A DNA stretch of 64,000 bases, from the sequence record ON286973, one strand, 5' to 3'. Position 1 is the first letter of the stretch; every line of letters starts with the position of its first letter. The notes beneath the pieces were generated by a model. That model saw only the letters and a program-made list of their open reading frames with translations. It did no database searches and was not told the DNA's origin. The DNA comes from Escherichia phage A51.2. The position numbers and the translations under genes are program-made. Below are positions 55,929-64,000 of the stretch, piece after piece.

Positions 55929-56468
55929 TCAACACTTTTTGTACTCTACTACAACCACATCAATATCTGTGGTTGCAAGATTAATTACATCTTCTACATG
56001 TTCCCACTTTAGACCGCCAATACCGCATCCAATTTTAGGAATGTAGAACGGCAATGACACACCTTTGAATACCTCGTTGACTCGCTCAAAACCTTTCATG
56101 ATTGAGAAGTATTCAGCATTGGGCCCTGGGTAGAACTGGGTATACAGGTTGATTCCATATACGACCCTGTTCTTGGCAAAATGCTCCCAACAAGAAAACA
56201 TACCCAGCTTGTCTAGATTACCATAAGCAGTTTCTTTGTCGGCTGCCAGTGCTTGAGGGAACTCACGGGCAATATCTTTCGCTATACCTGCACCCATTGT
56301 GTGAAAGCAGTTACAACCGTGGATCATGTGGCCTGACCCTTTCTTGAAAATGGAGATTAGATCTCCACCTACAGTATCAATAATCACGGTATGCCAGCTC
56401 CTCTTCCGCAATTTCAAAAAACTCAGTCCAGCACTGTGGCATATTGGAGTTGCCGAAGTGGCTTTCAT
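55929..56468 (-). CDS. Macro-domain protein (DarG-like ADP-ribosyl hydrolase fold, putative)
   Basis: GDLISIF ... HMIHGCNCFHTMGAGIAKDIAREFP fits the macro-domain GD ... H-x-C-N ... G-x-G-(I/V)-A pattern; start uncertain (ATG 56468 or GTG 56486) and overlaps the upstream ORF by over 90 nt. Confidence 0.55.
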   Translation of the reverse strand: MKATSATPICHSAGLSFLKLRKRSWHTVIIDTVGGDLISIFKKGSGHMIHGCNCFHTMGAGIAKDIAREFPQALAADKETAYGNLDKLGMFSCWEHFAKNRVVYGINLYTQFYPGPNAEYFSIMKGFERVNEVFKGVSLPFYIPKIGCGIGGLKWEHVEDVINLATTDIDVVVVEYKKC

Positions 56469-56802
56469 AGTAAAGGTTCTCACCACTTGGAAGATAGAAA
56501 TCTGTTACCTCATAGAATCCACAATCGTCGCACTCACCTTCTTCAAACTTGGCCTCAACCTTAATACCGAGGAAGGTGAAAAGTTTATGGATATCTTCAG
56601 TTTCGAACTCCCAGTGAATGTTGTTTTCCGCATCGGTGTAGAACTGGATCAGCAGACCCTTGTCCAGTTTACCAAAATACTCTGTGAAGTAACTTCCTTC
56701 CCAGAAATCTTTATGACAAATAATATCCATGCGTTTGCCCATAATAATGGTGTGAGCGTTTTGGGCATCGTCACGAATCAGTTTTGGCATTTCATAGATC
56801 AT
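56377..56802 (-). CDS. Hypothetical acidic protein
   Basis: 141-aa ORF; 3' end overlaps the macro-domain ORF in another frame. Confidence 0.4.
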   Translation of the reverse strand: MIYEMPKLIRDDAQNAHTIIMGKRMDIICHKDFWEGSYFTEYFGKLDKGLLIQFYTDAENNIHWEFETEDIHKLFTFLGIKVEAKFEEGECDDCGFYEVTDFYLPSGENLYYESHFGNSNMPQCWTEFFEIAEEELAYRDY

Positions 56803-57581: not shown

Positions 57582-57643
57582 TTTTCAGATCTCCTTATAC
57601 AAAAATGCCCCACCCTTTCGGGCAGGGCTATGTTAACTAGATG

Positions 57644-58870
57644 TTAAAAAGGGATGTCATCATCAAAGGTATACTGTGCTGGATTCTGATCCATTGGGTC
57701 ATCTTCCTCATCATTTACAGGAGGAGCGTCTACAGTGTTTTGCTGTGGAGCTGCTTCCTGTTTGGCAGCCTGGGGTTCTTGATAGTCAGTTGACCCAGCA
57801 CCGTTCTTGATCCAATCGTACAACGGTTCAGCCAGATTAGTCAAGACATCTTTTGCTTCTGCAGTAATTGCCGCTGCAAAATCATCAACTTTCGTTTTCT
57901 TGTCAATACGGCGACAAGCGTTCAACACCGCATTACCGACACTGGCACCTACTTCATCTTCAGTTCGGTTGGTGGCTTGAGCATACTCTTTCTTAAGCTC
58001 AATGGTGACTACGTGCAGTGTTTTAGCCACGCCCAGTGGGTCGTCTACCTTAAACCCGCGATCCAGGATGATCTGCAACGCATTGATGCTATGCCCCGTT
58101 TCCACACCGATAGGGTCGTAAGAGGATTTACGCTTGCCACCGGAGCCTTGAGTGCCGTTCTCTGCCTTAGGGGGATAGGCTTTGAAACCGCTGATAATGT
58201 TTCCGGTGTCTTTGTCAACAATGGCTGCAACACGACCACCTACCACCAGGTCTTTAAGCTGCTCATCAGTTACAACCATAGCACCTTCGCCAATCTTGTG
58301 GTCATTAACAGTAACCACGTTGCCAACAATCTGAGTCACATCGCCATAGATGCGTAAAACGTCCTGATTGGCATTCTGCTGAGGTTTCTGCTTCTGGCCT
58401 TGTGATTGTGCACCTTGTTGCTGTTTTTGCTGCTGAGTCGCTGCTGGAGCCTCTCCTGCACCCAGCTTGACCATCTTAGCCAGTGAGCCTTTGTAATAGG
58501 TCTTACCGTTATGCTCGTTTGCCTTCAAAGGGATATTTACGATCCATCCCGGCGTTACGGTTTCCCACTTGTCATCAATTTTAACAGAGACAGAGTCTTG
58601 ATGACCAGGTTTAAGCAGCTTATCACCCATGCTGATCCAAACTTCTTCACCACCTTGAAGCAGGTTATCAGAGGAATCCAGTTCAGAAATCAGTAAAGAG
58701 ATGGTGTGGCTGGATTCAATTTTCTTACCTTGCCACACAGTGGTTTTAATACCTGTTGTAGGATCAGCACCTTTGATAGGCTTGATGCTGACACGTTTAA
58801 TCATGCCGTGAGCCAGTAAAACAGTTTCACGCGGATTCATCGGGTTAGCGAATTGTTGAATAACGCTCAT
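57644..58870 (-). CDS. SSB-like protein with canonical C-terminal acidic tip DDDIPF (putative ssDNA-binding protein)
   Basis: C-terminus ends ...AQYTFDDDIPF, matching the bacterial SSB tail; Gln-rich low-complexity linker mid-protein; AAGGAGA RBS. Confidence 0.5.
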   Translation of the reverse strand: MSVIQQFANPMNPRETVLLAHGMIKRVSIKPIKGADPTTGIKTTVWQGKKIESSHTISLLISELDSSDNLLQGGEEVWISMGDKLLKPGHQDSVSVKIDDKWETVTPGWIVNIPLKANEHNGKTYYKGSLAKMVKLGAGEAPAATQQQKQQQGAQSQGQKQKPQQNANQDVLRIYGDVTQIVGNVVTVNDHKIGEGAMVVTDEQLKDLVVGGRVAAIVDKDTGNIISGFKAYPPKAENGTQGSGGKRKSSYDPIGVETGHSINALQIILDRGFKVDDPLGVAKTLHVVTIELKKEYAQATNRTEDEVGASVGNAVLNACRRIDKKTKVDDFAAAITAEAKDVLTNLAEPLYDWIKNGAGSTDYQEPQAAKQEAAPQQNTVDAPPVNDEEDDPMDQNPAQYTFDDDIPF

Positions 58871-59235
58871 TATTTGTCTCCTTGTTCTTCGTTAGTGTTT
58901 GCCGTGTGTGCAAACCCTGCTTGAATTAATTTGTCCTGAACTTGAGCCAACAGCCCCATTGCAAAACTTGTGGTCCCAGAGAGGGCCATCAGCATATCTC
59001 GTTGTTGAGCTACCCAACCTAAGGCATAGTCCAAACGACGATATTTTTCTTCTTCACGCAGAGCTTGAAATAATTGTTCAGCCTCTGGTTGTTGTGTGAG
59101 CTCCTGAAGTCTTCCCATGAAAGAAGAAAGCACTAGCAGAAGAGACACTTGATCTTTACTTAACCCTAAGAAAAATTCTTGAGGTTGTTCTTGCTCGTTC
59201 ATCGCAACCGACGCTTGATCGTTCATTTGTTCCAT
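58870..59235 (-). CDS. Hypothetical protein
   Basis: ORF; stop overlaps the downstream start. Confidence 0.4.
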   Translation of the reverse strand: MEQMNDQASVAMNEQEQPQEFFLGLSKDQVSLLLVLSSFMGRLQELTQQPEAEQLFQALREEEKYRRLDYALGWVAQQRDMLMALSGTTSFAMGLLAQVQDKLIQAGFAHTANTNEEQGDK

Positions 59236-59318
59236 TATGGAATCTCCGATTTTATTTGAACAACATAGAAGGAGACACTATTTTAGCATCCCCTTCTGCA
59301 AATTACAATAGGTATTTG

Positions 59319-59581: not shown

Positions 59582-59902
59582 TTAATCGTCAAGTTCAAAA
59601 TAGATTTTAACAGCTTCATCAAAGATTGGAATCCCGATGTTGTTAATAAGCTGCCAAACTACCATATCTTTACCTGGGTCGGGGAGAATGTCAACCTTTC
59701 TCCATGCGCTGTATATCCAGTTCGGACCACCTTCTGCACTAACTGGCAGATTTTCACCAGCCTCCTGCAGATACTTATACAGCAAAAGATATTCTGGATA
59801 CTCTAGAACACTGTCCTCTGTAGTATATAGCAGTTCACGGTATACTTTTAAGAACCCTGCGGGGGTGATGTTTTCAGTCTTCATTTGCTGCTTCTCCTGC
59901 AT
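59582..59902 (-). CDS. Hypothetical protein
   Basis: ORF; alternative start ATG 59884 has the better RBS (GGAGAAG). Confidence 0.4.
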   Translation of the reverse strand: MQEKQQMKTENITPAGFLKVYRELLYTTEDSVLEYPEYLLLYKYLQEAGENLPVSAEGGPNWIYSAWRKVDILPDPGKDMVVWQLINNIGIPIFDEAVKIYFELDD

Positions 59903-60535: not shown

Positions 60536-60598
60536 TGCTGTGGTCCCCTTTCGTTTTGATAGGGCCATTATAGTAGGCCCTATGACTGTTGTCAAGCA

Positions 60599-62060: not shown

Positions 62061-64000
62061 TTAGTGACAATCACCCCAGTTACGACCGCACAAGTATTCA
62101 CCTGTGATCTGGAATGGAACGCCCATCATTTTAGAAGCTTGCCAGAAGCAATGCACCACCATTTCACCCACAGGGCTCCAGATAAGTTCAAGCTTTCCGT
62201 CATCGTTCAGGATAGGATCGTACACCGTGTTTCCGTCTCTGTCAACCACTTCGTTTCCGTTTTCATCCTTGCGTGCCTTTTTGTACTTATGACCGTCGAA
62301 CACATGAAGTTTGGCTTCCTGCTCTGCCTTAAATGCTTCCAATTCTTCAATTGTGTCGAAGGTGTACACAGTCTTATACTTAGGTGTGTCAGGGACCTGA
62401 AGTTGGTACTCATCATGGTAATAAATAATACGACGGACACCTTCATCGTACCACCCACGCTTCACCATTTGGTGGTGCATGAGTATCCCAACTAAGTCAC
62501 ACAGCGATGCACCACCATTTTGTTGGTATGCATTAAGTAAAGAGTGTTTAGATCGGGTCCAGATAGCATGACCATCAAAAGAGTAGATAAACTTCTTACC
62601 TGTTGCTTCCCAGAATTTCTCCAGATCCTCTTTGCGCCCCTTAAGACCGGGGTTGGCATCCCAAAGTGCATCGATCACCCTTTGCCCCAACTCTGGGGAG
62701 ATATCCAGCATATCTGCGACTTTATCTTTTTGTGCCCCGTACATAACCCCATACGTGATAGGTTTACCGTCGTTACGAGACACCTCTCTGCCTGCTACTT
62801 TTGTATATGCCTCAGCATTGTTTTGGTGTGCGTCTCCGTTACTTACAACATCATAGTACAAGCCGTTGTCGAACTCAAAGGCACCCCAAGCCCCGATAAG
62901 CTGCTCTAAGTTGGACCCGTCAATACCGATCTCAAAATATCCAGGAGGAACACCCCACAAGCTACGCATCTCTTTACCCATAACCACTTTAGGAGATGGT
63001 TTAGGCATGTTTGCACAAATACTGTGTTTCTGTCGGGAAGTGTTTGTTAATCCAGAGCTTTTAGCAGGAAGCTTATGGTCAATCTTCAAACGTGGGTGAT
63101 TAAGAAGACCAGTATCAACCTTATCCTCCTTGATTGGATCAAGGACCGATCTGCGGTTTCGCAATGATAACCACAAGACGATATCTTTAGCCATCTCTCC
63201 GTTCAATTTTTCAAGATTCGGACATAGGTGTCCAAACGTATCTTTCAGTTGCGGAGAAGTAATAAGTGCCCTGGCTTTTCTGCGTATTTTCCCGAACACT
63301 TCCTTTTTAATCCTTTCGGAGTTAGGAAAGCTTCGGAACTTGTGCACTGTTGTCTGAAACTTAGCATCAGTTTTGTTCCAGAAGTTGATAATTAGGTCAC
63401 AATACTCTGACTCTAAAAGCTCGTCCATGTATGCATATACTCGTGCATCAACATCTGCATCAGGTAGAGCTTTCTTCTTGCTGTCCTTAGTTACATCCTT
63501 AGTTCTCCACATTGTCGGAAGCCAACCAGCACTGATCAGGTATCGCTTAATGTCGTCCTGATTGCTGATTTTCATAGGTATCTTGCAGTCAGGCATTCGC
63601 TTCTGCTGCAGATCACTTATTGCCTGATCCATCAGCTCTTTAGGTAAAGGTTGTGGTGTGGAGGTGCCCTTAATATAACCTCTCAAGAAATCAGCCATCT
63701 TGTCGGGGTCTTTGCAGCCCATCTCTTCGCACCATTTTATCCCCATCTTGCTGACATCTCCTGTGGAGGTAAATGCTCGCTTAGGCGGGGCTTTGAATTC
63801 TAAGGCGCTCATGTCTACAGGATAGCCAAGCTTATCTTTTAACCATTTCCAACCATTATTGGAGATTGTCCCATCTTGGTTAAACGGCTTTTCAGGGAAC
63901 TTGGGCCGCTGAGACATTGACAACTCTTTTAAAGGAAGTTGAGGTTCAACACGATCAGCGATCTCTTTCATCCACGCATCGCAACGGTCACGTAAAGCAA
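62061..64000 (-). CDS. DNA polymerase, family A (Pol I-like), C-terminal polymerase domain; 5' end lies beyond the window
   Basis: Motif B-like KPITYGVMYG and motif C-like YYHDEYQ; the ORF stays open to the window edge. Confidence 0.75.
   Translation of the reverse strand, partial: ALRDRCDAWMKEIADRVEPQLPLKELSMSQRPKFPEKPFNQDGTISNNGWKWLKDKLGYPVDMSALEFKAPPKRAFTSTGDVSKMGIKWCEEMGCKDPDKMADFLRGYIKGTSTPQPLPKELMDQAISDLQQKRMPDCKIPMKISNQDDIKRYLISAGWLPTMWRTKDVTKDSKKKALPDADVDARVYAYMDELLESEYCDLIINFWNKTDAKFQTTVHKFRSFPNSERIKKEVFGKIRRKARALITSPQLKDTFGHLCPNLEKLNGEMAKDIVLWLSLRNRRSVLDPIKEDKVDTGLLNHPRLKIDHKLPAKSSGLTNTSRQKHSICANMPKPSPKVVMGKEMRSLWGVPPGYFEIGIDGSNLEQLIGAWGAFEFDNGLYYDVVSNGDAHQNNAEAYTKVAGREVSRNDGKPITYGVMYGAQKDKVADMLDISPELGQRVIDALWDANPGLKGRKEDLEKFWEATGKKFIYSFDGHAIWTRSKHSLLNAYQQNGGASLCDLVGILMHHQMVKRGWYDEGVRRIIYYHDEYQLQVPDTPKYKTVYTFDTIEELEAFKAEQEAKLHVFDGHKYKKARKDENGNEVVDRDGNTVYDPILNDDGKLELIWSPVGEMVVHCFWQASKMMGVPFQITGEYLCGRNWGDCH

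What the first reader, a model, noticed from the sequence alone, without database searches (positions are those of the whole stretch)
57644..58870. Large SSB-like protein ending in the bacterial SSB C-terminal tip DDDIPF
The last residues (...QYTFDDDIPF) match the conserved tip that bacterial SSB uses to recruit partner proteins. The protein is much larger than a canonical SSB (408 aa) and has a Gln-rich linker (QQQKQQQGAQSQGQKQKPQQ) between two larger regions. It may be a phage SSB that hijacks or competes for host SSB-interacting proteins.
Basis: partly seen in the sequence, partly recalled or inferred. Interest (0 to 1): 0.55.

Follow-up and report, generated by a model that had tools for sequence, protein, structure and literature searches.

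The report
Phage SSB-like protein with host SSB tip
This rV5-like coliphage gene encodes a large, non-canonical single-stranded-DNA-binding-type protein whose last seven residues copy the docking tip of the host's SSB; a 2026 preprint already describes a 99%-identical protein in the same way, as the trigger of the DRT10 defence system.

Summary
A 408-aa ORF on the minus strand (57644-58870) ends in ...QYTFDDDIPF and has a Gln-rich disordered linker.

The window is a Vequintavirus (rV5-like) genome. The protein is 405/408 identical to Bas52_0087. A 2026 bioRxiv preprint found that protein to be the phage factor needed to trigger the DRT10 reverse-transcriptase defence. It described it, from AlphaFold, as SSB-like with two OB folds, a four-helix bundle and an SSB C-tip.

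My independent modelling gives the same architecture:
- No sequence method links the protein to any SSB family.
- The four-helix bundle has no known relative.

The tip is the most conserved part of a family of about 250 clusters. Some members copy up to 13 terminal residues of E. coli SSB. The phage has no other SSB.

Points not in the preprint:
- The phage's T7-type primase-helicase carries a similar acidic ...PF tail.
- Type phage rV5 and about 30-50 relatives carry a 15-residue add-on after the tip, plus a homing endonuclease gene.
- The same add-on recurs on unrelated phage SSBs.

SSB function and host-partner hijacking remain plausible but untested.

The parts
57644..58870 (-). Whole gene: 408-aa SSB-like protein (ortholog of rV5 gp209 and Bas52_0087), stop codon included
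   Evidence: ORF list. Full-length match to PHROG 4477, E=8e-174. 405/408 identical to Bas52_0087.
58454..58870 (-). N-terminal beta domain (aa 1-139), predicted OB fold and the likely ssDNA-binding module
58361..58453 (-). Gln/Ala/Lys-rich disordered linker (aa 140-170)
   Evidence: 43% Gln. pLDDT 25-35. Length and sequence vary across homologs.
58163..58360 (-). Small second beta domain (aa 171-236) with strand-strand-strand-helix-strand-strand order (OB-like). It is an optional insert.
   Evidence: AF2 pLDDT 81-88. Present in 83 collected homologs with the long architecture and absent from 96 with the short one. The preprint calls it OB-fold-2. No profile similarity to the first domain.
57806..58117 (-). 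Four-helix bundle (aa 252-355), the most conserved folded part. It carries both DRT10 escape positions, D252 and Y351.
57668..57805 (-). Disordered acidic tail (aa 356-401)
   Evidence: pLDDT below 50 for aa 363-404. 13 acidic against 2 basic residues in aa 353-408.
57647..57667 (-). C-terminal tip FDDDIPF (aa 402-408), identical to the last 7 residues of E. coli SSB
57607..57628 (-). Intrinsic-terminator-like hairpin GCCCTGCCC-GAAA-GGGTGGGGC followed by a T-run, 16 nt after the stop codon
   Evidence: The same hairpin is kept in the endonuclease-carrying allele.
58870..59235 (-). Upstream 121-aa helical protein of unknown function. Its stop overlaps the start codon (TAATG).
   Evidence: PHROG 7310, unknown function. 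Homolog upstream of the gene in PVP-SE1 (E=4e-11) but not in CR3 or ESCO37.
62061..63971 (-). Context: C-terminal part of the phage family-A DNA polymerase, on the same strand about 3.2 kb upstream
   Evidence: Pfam DNA_pol_A, E=3e-8 (33.3 bits, just under the 34.3-bit curated cut-off). Annotated gene order in JLBYU08 and Bas52.

Best explanation
The gene encodes the phage's own single-stranded-DNA-binding protein, from a family unrelated in sequence to bacterial SSB or T7 gp2.5.

Inferred mechanism:
- One or two OB-fold domains coat the ssDNA exposed at forks made by the phage's T7-type replisome (family-A polymerase plus gp4-like primase-helicase).
- The four-helix bundle mediates self-association or partner contact.
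- A long disordered acidic tail presents a C-terminal FDDDIPF peptide as a docking handle.
- Because that peptide copies the host SSB tip, it can fit the SSB-Ct pockets of host enzymes. Exonuclease I (SbcB) is the prime candidate, given the DRT10 genetics.
- Because the phage primase-helicase carries a similar tail, it probably also docks on a phage replisome component, as in T7.
- The DRT10 defence system senses this protein's activity during infection.

Shown: sequence, family-wide conservation, predicted folds, gene context, and (from the preprint) the genetic requirement for DRT10 triggering.

Inferred: ssDNA binding, oligomerisation and every binding partner.
For: **Predicted structure**
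- Two confident beta domains, a four-helix bundle and a disordered tail.
- The preprint's AF2/Phold analysis independently reached the same architecture.

**Tip**
- Identical to the last 7 residues of E. coli SSB.
- It is the most conserved segment of the family.

**Genome context**
- A curated full genome of the 99%-identical phage Bas52 lists a polymerase, primase/helicase, helicase, ligase and exonucleases but no SSB.
- phmmer --max with E. coli SSB finds no canonical SSB in that genome or in the window.
- The gene lies downstream of primase-helicase and PolA on the same strand. The same layout is seen in PVP-SE1, CR3, a Phapecoctavirus and a Vibrio phage.
- In that Vibrio phage and in a metagenomic contig, the syntenic slot holds an unrelated ~400-aa protein (PHROG 2544) that still ends ETPMDFDDDIPF or NDFDDSIPF.

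**Genetics (preprint)**
- Only missense escape mutants, D252V and Y351C, were recovered in Bas52_0087. That fits an essential gene, though there were only two mutants.
- SbcB overexpression weakens DRT10 defence.

**Precedents**
- 112 of 120 primase-helicase homologs end in acidic-xPF.
- The T7 gp4 and gp2.5 acidic tails bind gp5/thioredoxin.
- The last six residues of the HK620 SSB recruit the phage protein Sak4.
Against: - No sequence method links any domain to an SSB family. Pfam gives nothing. PDB sequence and profile searches give nothing. hhalign of the N-terminal domain against E. coli SSB gives probability 0.2%.
- T7 gp2.5 is not among the top PDB hits. Phage SSB and DUF2815 hits in BFVD are weak (E about 1e-2).
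- No ssDNA-binding experiment exists.
- Expression of Bas52_0087 alone does not trigger DRT10.
- In rV5 and at least 32 other isolates, 15 residues follow the tip. Those viable phages lack the free terminal carboxylate that known SSB-Ct pockets use.
- Position -3 of the primase-helicase tail is E, T or S rather than I, L or V, so the two tails need not share a partner.
Confidence: 0.6

Rival explanations
1. T7-style internal wiring only. The protein is the replicative SSB, but its tip serves solely to dock on phage proteins (the family-A polymerase and/or the primase-helicase) and to self-regulate DNA binding. The resemblance to the host tip reflects shared ancestry or capture of an ssb 3' end, not hijacking of host partners.
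For: - The phage primase-helicase and 112 of 120 homologs end in an acidic xPF tail, for example PPADFDDDTPF.
- The replisome is PolA plus a gp4-like helicase, homologous to T7 gp4 at E=4e-16.
- In T7, the gp4 and gp2.5 tails compete for basic patches on gp5/thioredoxin.
- The HK620 SSB tail recruits phage Sak4.
- rV5-type alleles with an internal tip are viable.
Against: - Some family members copy 11-13 terminal residues of E. coli SSB exactly, including EPPMDF. That is far more than an 'acidic plus Phe' tail needs.
- Position -3 is I, L or V as in bacterial SSBs, but E, T or S in the primase-helicase.
- DRT10 activation is genetically tied to host ExoI, a known SSB-Ct client.
Confidence: 0.25
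2. Host-interactome decoy. The protein's main job is not to coat phage ssDNA. It displays many copies of the SSB tip to sequester or redirect host SSB-interacting enzymes such as ExoI, RecQ or PriA, as a takeover or anti-nuclease function.
For: - Exact host-like tip.
- The preprint proposes competition with or displacement of SbcB.
- The bundle may multimerise the protein, which would raise tip valency.
Against: - A phage with its own polymerase and helicase would then lack any SSB.
- The gene is fixed in the replication module across subfamilies.
- Conserved OB domains would have no explanation.
- Extended alleles bury the tip in many isolates.
Confidence: 0.1
3. Not a DNA-binding protein. 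The beta barrels are generic OB/SH3-like modules that bind protein or another ligand, and the protein is an adaptor that merely shares a tail motif with SSBs.
For: - No sequence homology to any SSB.
Against: - The hit list is dominated by ssDNA binders.
- Synteny with replication genes.
- Absence of any other SSB.
- The same tail sits on bona fide PF00436 phage SSBs.
Confidence: 0.08

Closest known systems
Bas52_0087 (QXV84166.1) of Escherichia phage RudolfGeigy, the trigger of the DRT10/UG17 defence (bioRxiv 10.64898/2026.04.29.721553)
   Same: 405/408 identical and the same length. D252 and Y351, the escape positions, are present, as is the same ...FDDDIPF end. The predicted architecture is the same.
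   Different: Three substitutions in the disordered tail (Y363H, A369T, T401S). Nothing functional is expected to differ. The preprint did no biochemistry and did not examine the family, the primase-helicase tail or the extended alleles.
Bacterial SSB (Pfam PF00436; E. coli SSB, PDB 1eqq/1kaw)
   Different: No detectable sequence homology. 408 aa against 178 aa. It has a second beta domain and a four-helix bundle. The Gln-rich linker sits between domains, not before the tip. The oligomerisation mode is unknown.
T7 gp2.5 with gp4 and gp5 (T7 replisome)
   Same: A phage-encoded SSB serving a family-A polymerase and a gp4-type primase-helicase. Both the SSB and the helicase carry acidic tails ending in Phe.
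   Different: No sequence relation, and gp2.5 is not among the top structural hits. The tail here ends IPF like the host's. From my own memory, not checked here, the T7 tails end in DF. There is no four-helix bundle in gp2.5.
Phage-encoded canonical SSBs with a host-like tip (for example Salmonella phage epsilon34 gp35; HK620 SSB with Sak4)
   Same: Phage SSBs that keep an SSB-Ct-like tail. In HK620 the last six residues recruit a phage partner. epsilon34 gp35 has EPPMDFDDDIPF.
   Different: Those are true PF00436 members. The window protein is not.
PHROG 2544 proteins (Vibrio phage 277E43-1 and a metagenomic relative)
   Same: They occupy the same slot at the end of the primase-helicase/PolA operon, have a similar size (392-402 aa) and carry the same tail, ETPMDFDDDIPF or NDFDDSIPF.
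   Different: The body is unrelated: only the tail matches the family profile. Function also unknown.

Membership tests
Bacterial SSB family (Pfam PF00436) | Sequence match to the SSB OB-domain profile | tested here: not met
   Pfam scan at E up to 1 finds no SSB model. hhalign of the N-terminal domain profile against E. coli SSB gives probability 0.2%. A PDB profile search gives nothing.
Bacterial SSB family (Pfam PF00436) | OB fold of the nucleic-acid-binding superfamily | tested here: met
Bacterial SSB family (Pfam PF00436) | Acidic tip D-D-D-I-P-F at the free C-terminus, preceded by a disordered linker | tested here: met
   Ends FDDDIPF*, identical to the end of 1eqq_A. aa 363-404 have pLDDT below 50.
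Bacterial SSB family (Pfam PF00436) | Binds ssDNA; homotetramer formed through the OB domains | not testable with these tools
   Needs purified protein (EMSA, SEC-MALS).
T7 gp2.5-type phage SSB | Sequence or fold match to gp2.5 / DUF2815 | tested here: inconclusive
T7 gp2.5-type phage SSB | Acidic C-terminal tail ending in Phe, paired with a primase-helicase that has a similar tail and a family-A polymerase | tested here: met
   112 of 120 primase-helicase homologs end in PF. PolA and DnaB_C matches. Homology to T7 gp4 at E=4e-16.
T7 gp2.5-type phage SSB | The tail binds the phage polymerase | not testable with these tools
   Needs pull-down or ITC, or a multimer structure prediction, which was not available here.
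PHROG 4477 / Bas52_0087 orthologs (DRT10 trigger) | Full-length homology | tested here: met
   PHROG 4477: E=8e-174 over residues 1-408. 99% identity to Bas52_0087.
PHROG 4477 / Bas52_0087 orthologs (DRT10 trigger) | Residues whose substitution lets the phage escape DRT10 (D252, Y351) | tested here: met
   Both are present at the same positions. D252 is conserved family-wide; Y351 is not.
PHROG 4477 / Bas52_0087 orthologs (DRT10 trigger) | Required for DRT10 activation during infection | not testable with these tools
   Shown genetically for Bas52 only.

The most novel reading that the evidence does not exclude
The family is a new, structurally distinct class of phage SSB: an OB fold plus a family-specific four-helix bundle. 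Together with the phage primase-helicase, it displays a copy of the host SSB tip. A T7-type replisome is thereby plugged into, or shields itself from, the host SSB interactome (ExoI first). A recurrent 15-residue cap (AP[IV]xL[QP][YF]..I[HY]x[LI]) is found after the tip on three unrelated protein bodies, sometimes moving with homing endonucleases. That cap would switch the docking off or redirect it.
Probability: 0.25. Interest if true: 0.65.

Novelty: already known. Interest (0 to 1): 0.4.

Why it matters
The finding itself repeats what a 2026 preprint says about a 99%-identical protein, so it adds little on its own.

It still matters for three reasons:
- It is the only candidate SSB of a large and therapeutically used group of coliphages (rV5-like, and phi92-like through homologs).
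- It is the sensed factor for a reverse-transcriptase defence system.
- Nobody has yet tested whether it binds ssDNA or what its host-like tip binds.

The side observations give cheap, sharp experiments:
- Natural alleles with a free tip and with a capped tip both exist in the BASEL collection.
- A second tip-like tail sits on the primase-helicase.
- The same cap occurs on canonical phage SSBs, and I found no literature on it.

If the tip does engage host ExoI, that would give a mechanistic link between phage replication and DRT10 activation.

Tried and rejected
1. **Sequence-level assignment of each domain.** Pfam, PDB phmmer, per-domain profiles against PDB sequences, and hhalign against E. 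coli SSB all gave nothing.
2. **Internal duplication of the two beta domains.** hhalign probability 1.4%, so rejected at the sequence level.
4. **phmmer of the 50-residue tail against the PDB.** It found nothing. I suspect HMMER's composition-bias correction but did not test this. I instead confirmed the E. coli SSB end from 1eqq_A.
5. **The upstream, overlapping 121-aa gene as an obligate partner.** It is homologous only as far as PVP-SE1 and is absent upstream in CR3 and ESCO37. Not supported.
6. **The APIGLQY... extension as a mere frame by-product of the rV5 homing endonuclease.** This was my first reading. I rejected it after finding the extension next to a different endonuclease family, with no endonuclease at all, and on a canonical SSB, with mostly synonymous codon differences.
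7. **The extension as read-through into a group I intron.** Rfam finds no intron.
8. **Per-phage DRT10 sensitivity of capped against uncapped BASEL phages.** It is not given in the preprint text or supplements.
9. **tRNA and Rfam scans of the window.** Nothing found.

Full report
**1.

The window has a single 408-aa ORF at 57644..58870, on the minus strand. It starts with ATG and ends ...NPAQYTFDDDIPF*. The plus strand of that interval is closed by stops. The start codon overlaps the TAA stop of an upstream 121-aa gene by one base, and an AAGGAG ribosome-binding site precedes it. A strong terminator-like hairpin follows 16 nt after the stop.

**2. Source of the window and prior knowledge**

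The gene is 99.9% identical in DNA to Escherichia phage APECc02 and is present in 115 phage records, so the window is a Vequintavirus (rV5-like) genome. Protein-level relatives occur throughout Vequintavirinae (PVP-SE1, CR3, Mydo, Hena1). A shorter form occurs in phi92-like and Phapecoctavirus phages. Annotations are mostly 'hypothetical protein', with a few records saying SSB.

Pfam has no model for it. PHROG 4477, 'unknown function', matches it end to end.

A literature search found a bioRxiv preprint of April 2026 (10.64898/2026.04.29.721553). It reports the following:
- Escape mutants of BASEL phage Bas52 from the DRT10/UG17 reverse-transcriptase defence carried D252V or Y351C in Bas52_0087.
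- Wild-type protein supplied in trans enhanced defence during infection, but expression alone did not trigger it.
- Overexpressing host exonuclease I (SbcB) weakened defence.
- AlphaFold2 and Phold described the protein as SSB-like, with two OB folds, a four-helix bundle, a disordered region and an FDDDIPF 'C-tip'.

The window protein is 405/408 identical to Bas52_0087 and has D252 and Y351. No ssDNA-binding or tip-binding experiment has been reported.

**3. Independent structural check**

An AlphaFold2 model built on 23 homologs gives:

| Segment | Residues | Confidence |
|---|---|---|
| Beta domain 1 | 1-139 | pLDDT 80-92 |
| Disordered Gln-rich linker | 140-169 | below 50 |
| Small beta domain (three strands, short helix, two strands) | 171-236 | 81-88 |
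| Short disordered linker | 237-250 | below 50 |
| Four-helix bundle | 253-355 | about 90 |
| Disordered acidic tail | from 363 | below 50 |

Sequence and profile searches of each domain against PDB sequences find nothing. hhalign gives no link between the first domain and E. coli SSB, or between the two beta domains.

In the viral structure library only family members match significantly, and all are uncharacterised. Hits to annotated phage SSBs and a DUF2815 protein are weak.

The protein is therefore SSB-like at the level of fold and architecture. It is not a member of PF00436 or of the gp2.5 family.

**4. The family and its tail**

An exhaustive profile search finds 246 cluster representatives. 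There are two architectures:
- a short form of about 260-300 aa, with OB domain, bundle and tail;
- a long form of about 350-420 aa, with the second beta domain inserted.

The bundle is the best-conserved folded part, and the tip is the best-conserved segment overall.

E. coli SSB ends SNEPPMDFDDDIPF (PDB 1eqq_A). Of the 203 collected sequences, 165 end in an acidic run plus PF, PW or [DE]F. Forty-seven share at least 6 terminal residues with E. coli SSB, and several share 11-13. The family tail logo is D-D-[F/D]-D-D-D-[I/L/V]-P-F. The tail is clearly selected.

**5. Is it the phage's SSB?**

- The curated Bas52 genome lists a family-A DNA polymerase, a primase/helicase, a PIF1-type helicase, a ligase and exonucleases, but no SSB, clamp or clamp loader.
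- phmmer with all filters off finds no canonical SSB in that genome or in the window.
- The gene lies on the same strand downstream of primase-helicase and polymerase.
- In PVP-SE1, CR3 and a Phapecoctavirus it closes that operon.
- In a Vibrio phage and a metagenomic contig with the same operon layout, the slot is filled by an unrelated ~400-aa protein (PHROG 2544) that nevertheless ends ETPMDFDDDIPF or NDFDDSIPF.

This pattern, with a conserved position and tail but an exchangeable body, is what one expects of the replisome's SSB. I put about 0.6 on SSB function with a docking tip.

**6. What does the tip dock to?**

*Host partners.* The evidence is:
- the exact copy of the host tip, beyond what an 'acidic plus Phe' tail needs;
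- I, L or V at position -3, as in bacterial SSBs;
- the genetic tie between DRT10 and ExoI, a known SSB-Ct client.

*Phage partners.* The genome scan showed that the only other long ORF ending in acidic-PF is the phage primase-helicase (...GFEDDETPF).
- 112 of 120 of its homologs end in xPF after an acidic run. Some are nearly identical to the SSB tip, for example PPADFDDDTPF.
- This enzyme is homologous to T7 gp4 and the polymerase is family A.
- In T7, the acidic tails of gp4 and gp2.5 compete for basic patches on the polymerase.
- In HK620, the last six residues of the SSB recruit the phage annealase Sak4.

The two readings are compatible and I cannot separate them computationally.

**7. 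Natural capped alleles**

Fifteen family members, including the representative of the largest cluster, continue 12 to 16 residues past the tip...DDIPF-APVGLQYGKSRIHAL.

In a metagenomic contig and in type phage rV5 (gp209, 423 aa), this extension comes with a 207-aa endonuclease gene (rv5_gp208; PHROG 1035, 'endonuclease VII'/HNH-like). Together they form one indel of about 640 bp placed directly after the last Phe codon. The window carries the empty allele. The insert is found in 52 phage records, 32 of them with near-full coverage. These include rV5 and the BASEL phages EmilHeitz, DrSchubert and MaxBurger.

I first took the extension for a by-product of the endonuclease insertion. That is wrong, for these reasons:
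- The same peptide follows the tail of some primase-helicases next to a different endonuclease family (HNH_3).
- It ends PVP-SE1 gp39 with no endonuclease nearby.
- It ends the canonical PF00436 SSB of Salmonella phage epsilon34...EPPMDFDDDIPF-APVTLPFPRHAIHAI.
- It is found in 231 phage records under genes annotated as SSB, OB-fold protein or primase/helicase.
- Codon differences between copies are mostly synonymous or conservative.
- Rfam finds no intron.
- No paper in the library contains the motif.

Its function is unexplained. It bears on this finding because known SSB-Ct pockets contact the carboxylate of the terminal Phe. Many viable relatives of this phage therefore lack a canonical free tip.

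**8. Verdict**

It is partly supported and already in the literature as a prediction. The hijack mechanism is unproven and has a credible T7-style alternative.

- Novelty of the finding as given: already known.
- Interest: moderate (0.4). This rests mainly on the untested biochemistry, the link to DRT10, and the side observations on paired tails and the recurrent cap.

Noticed in passing
Outside the window: L004:7613-9691 (Bas52 primase/helicase bas52_0075); homologs P0204-P0323: The phage's gp4-like primase-helicase ends in an acidic tail with terminal Pro-Phe (...GFEDDETPF). 112 of 120 homologs end in xPF, and some nearly copy the SSB tip (PPADFDDDTPF). The logo is [ED]-D-[EF]-D-[DN]-D-[ETS]-P-F.
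   Followed up: partly
L012:407-2273 (rV5 gp209 and gp208); L011:3001-4867; empty site in the window at 57644-57646: In type phage rV5 and at least 32 other isolates, an indel of about 640 bp sits directly after the last Phe codon. It adds 15 residues (APVGLQYGKSRIHAL) to the protein and a 207-aa endonuclease VII/HNH-like gene. The window has the empty allele with a free tip.
   Followed up: yes
L008:5183-5230 (PVP-SE1 gp39); L015:4517-4564 (a primase-helicase); L016:1528-1575 (epsilon34 SSB gp35): A conserved 15-residue add-on follows the ...IPF or ...TPF tip on three unrelated protein bodies: this family, primase-helicases and canonical PF00436 SSBs. Its consensus is A-P-[IV]-x-L-[QP]-[YF]-x-[RK]-x-x-I-[HY]-x-[LI]. 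It is found in 231 phage records, codon changes are mostly synonymous, there is no intron signal, and I found no literature on it. Function unknown.
   Followed up: partly
L013:17866-19074 (Vibrio phage 277E43-1) and L014:15851-17029: In distant phages with the same primase-helicase/PolA operon, the slot of this gene holds an unrelated ~400-aa PHROG 2544 protein of unknown function. It also ends ETPMDFDDDIPF or NDFDDSIPF. This looks like a second non-canonical tip-bearing family.
   Followed up: partly
window 58870-59235 (-): A 121-aa helical protein (PHROG 7310, unknown function) has its stop overlapping the SSB-like start. One record also annotates it 'putative SSB'. It is homologous to PVP-SE1 gp38 but is not found upstream of the gene in CR3 or ESCO37.
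   Followed up: partly
window 60567-60595 (-) and 59267-59308 (-): There is a perfect 12/12 sigma-70 consensus promoter (TTGACA-17-TATAAT) upstream of the small-gene cluster. A terminator-like hairpin overlapping a promoter-like site lies just upstream of the 121-aa gene. The 121-aa gene and the SSB-like gene may therefore form a two-gene unit bounded by terminators.
   Followed up: no
window 55929-56486 (-) and 59582-59902 (-): A Macro-domain protein (weak Pfam match) and a DUF7238 protein lie among the small early genes around the finding.
   Followed up: no
Phage database records MG0656xx: About 16-21 records labelled 'Campylobacter phage' with host C. jejuni are 98% or more identical to this E. 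coli Vequintavirus gene. Their host labels look doubtful.
   Followed up: no
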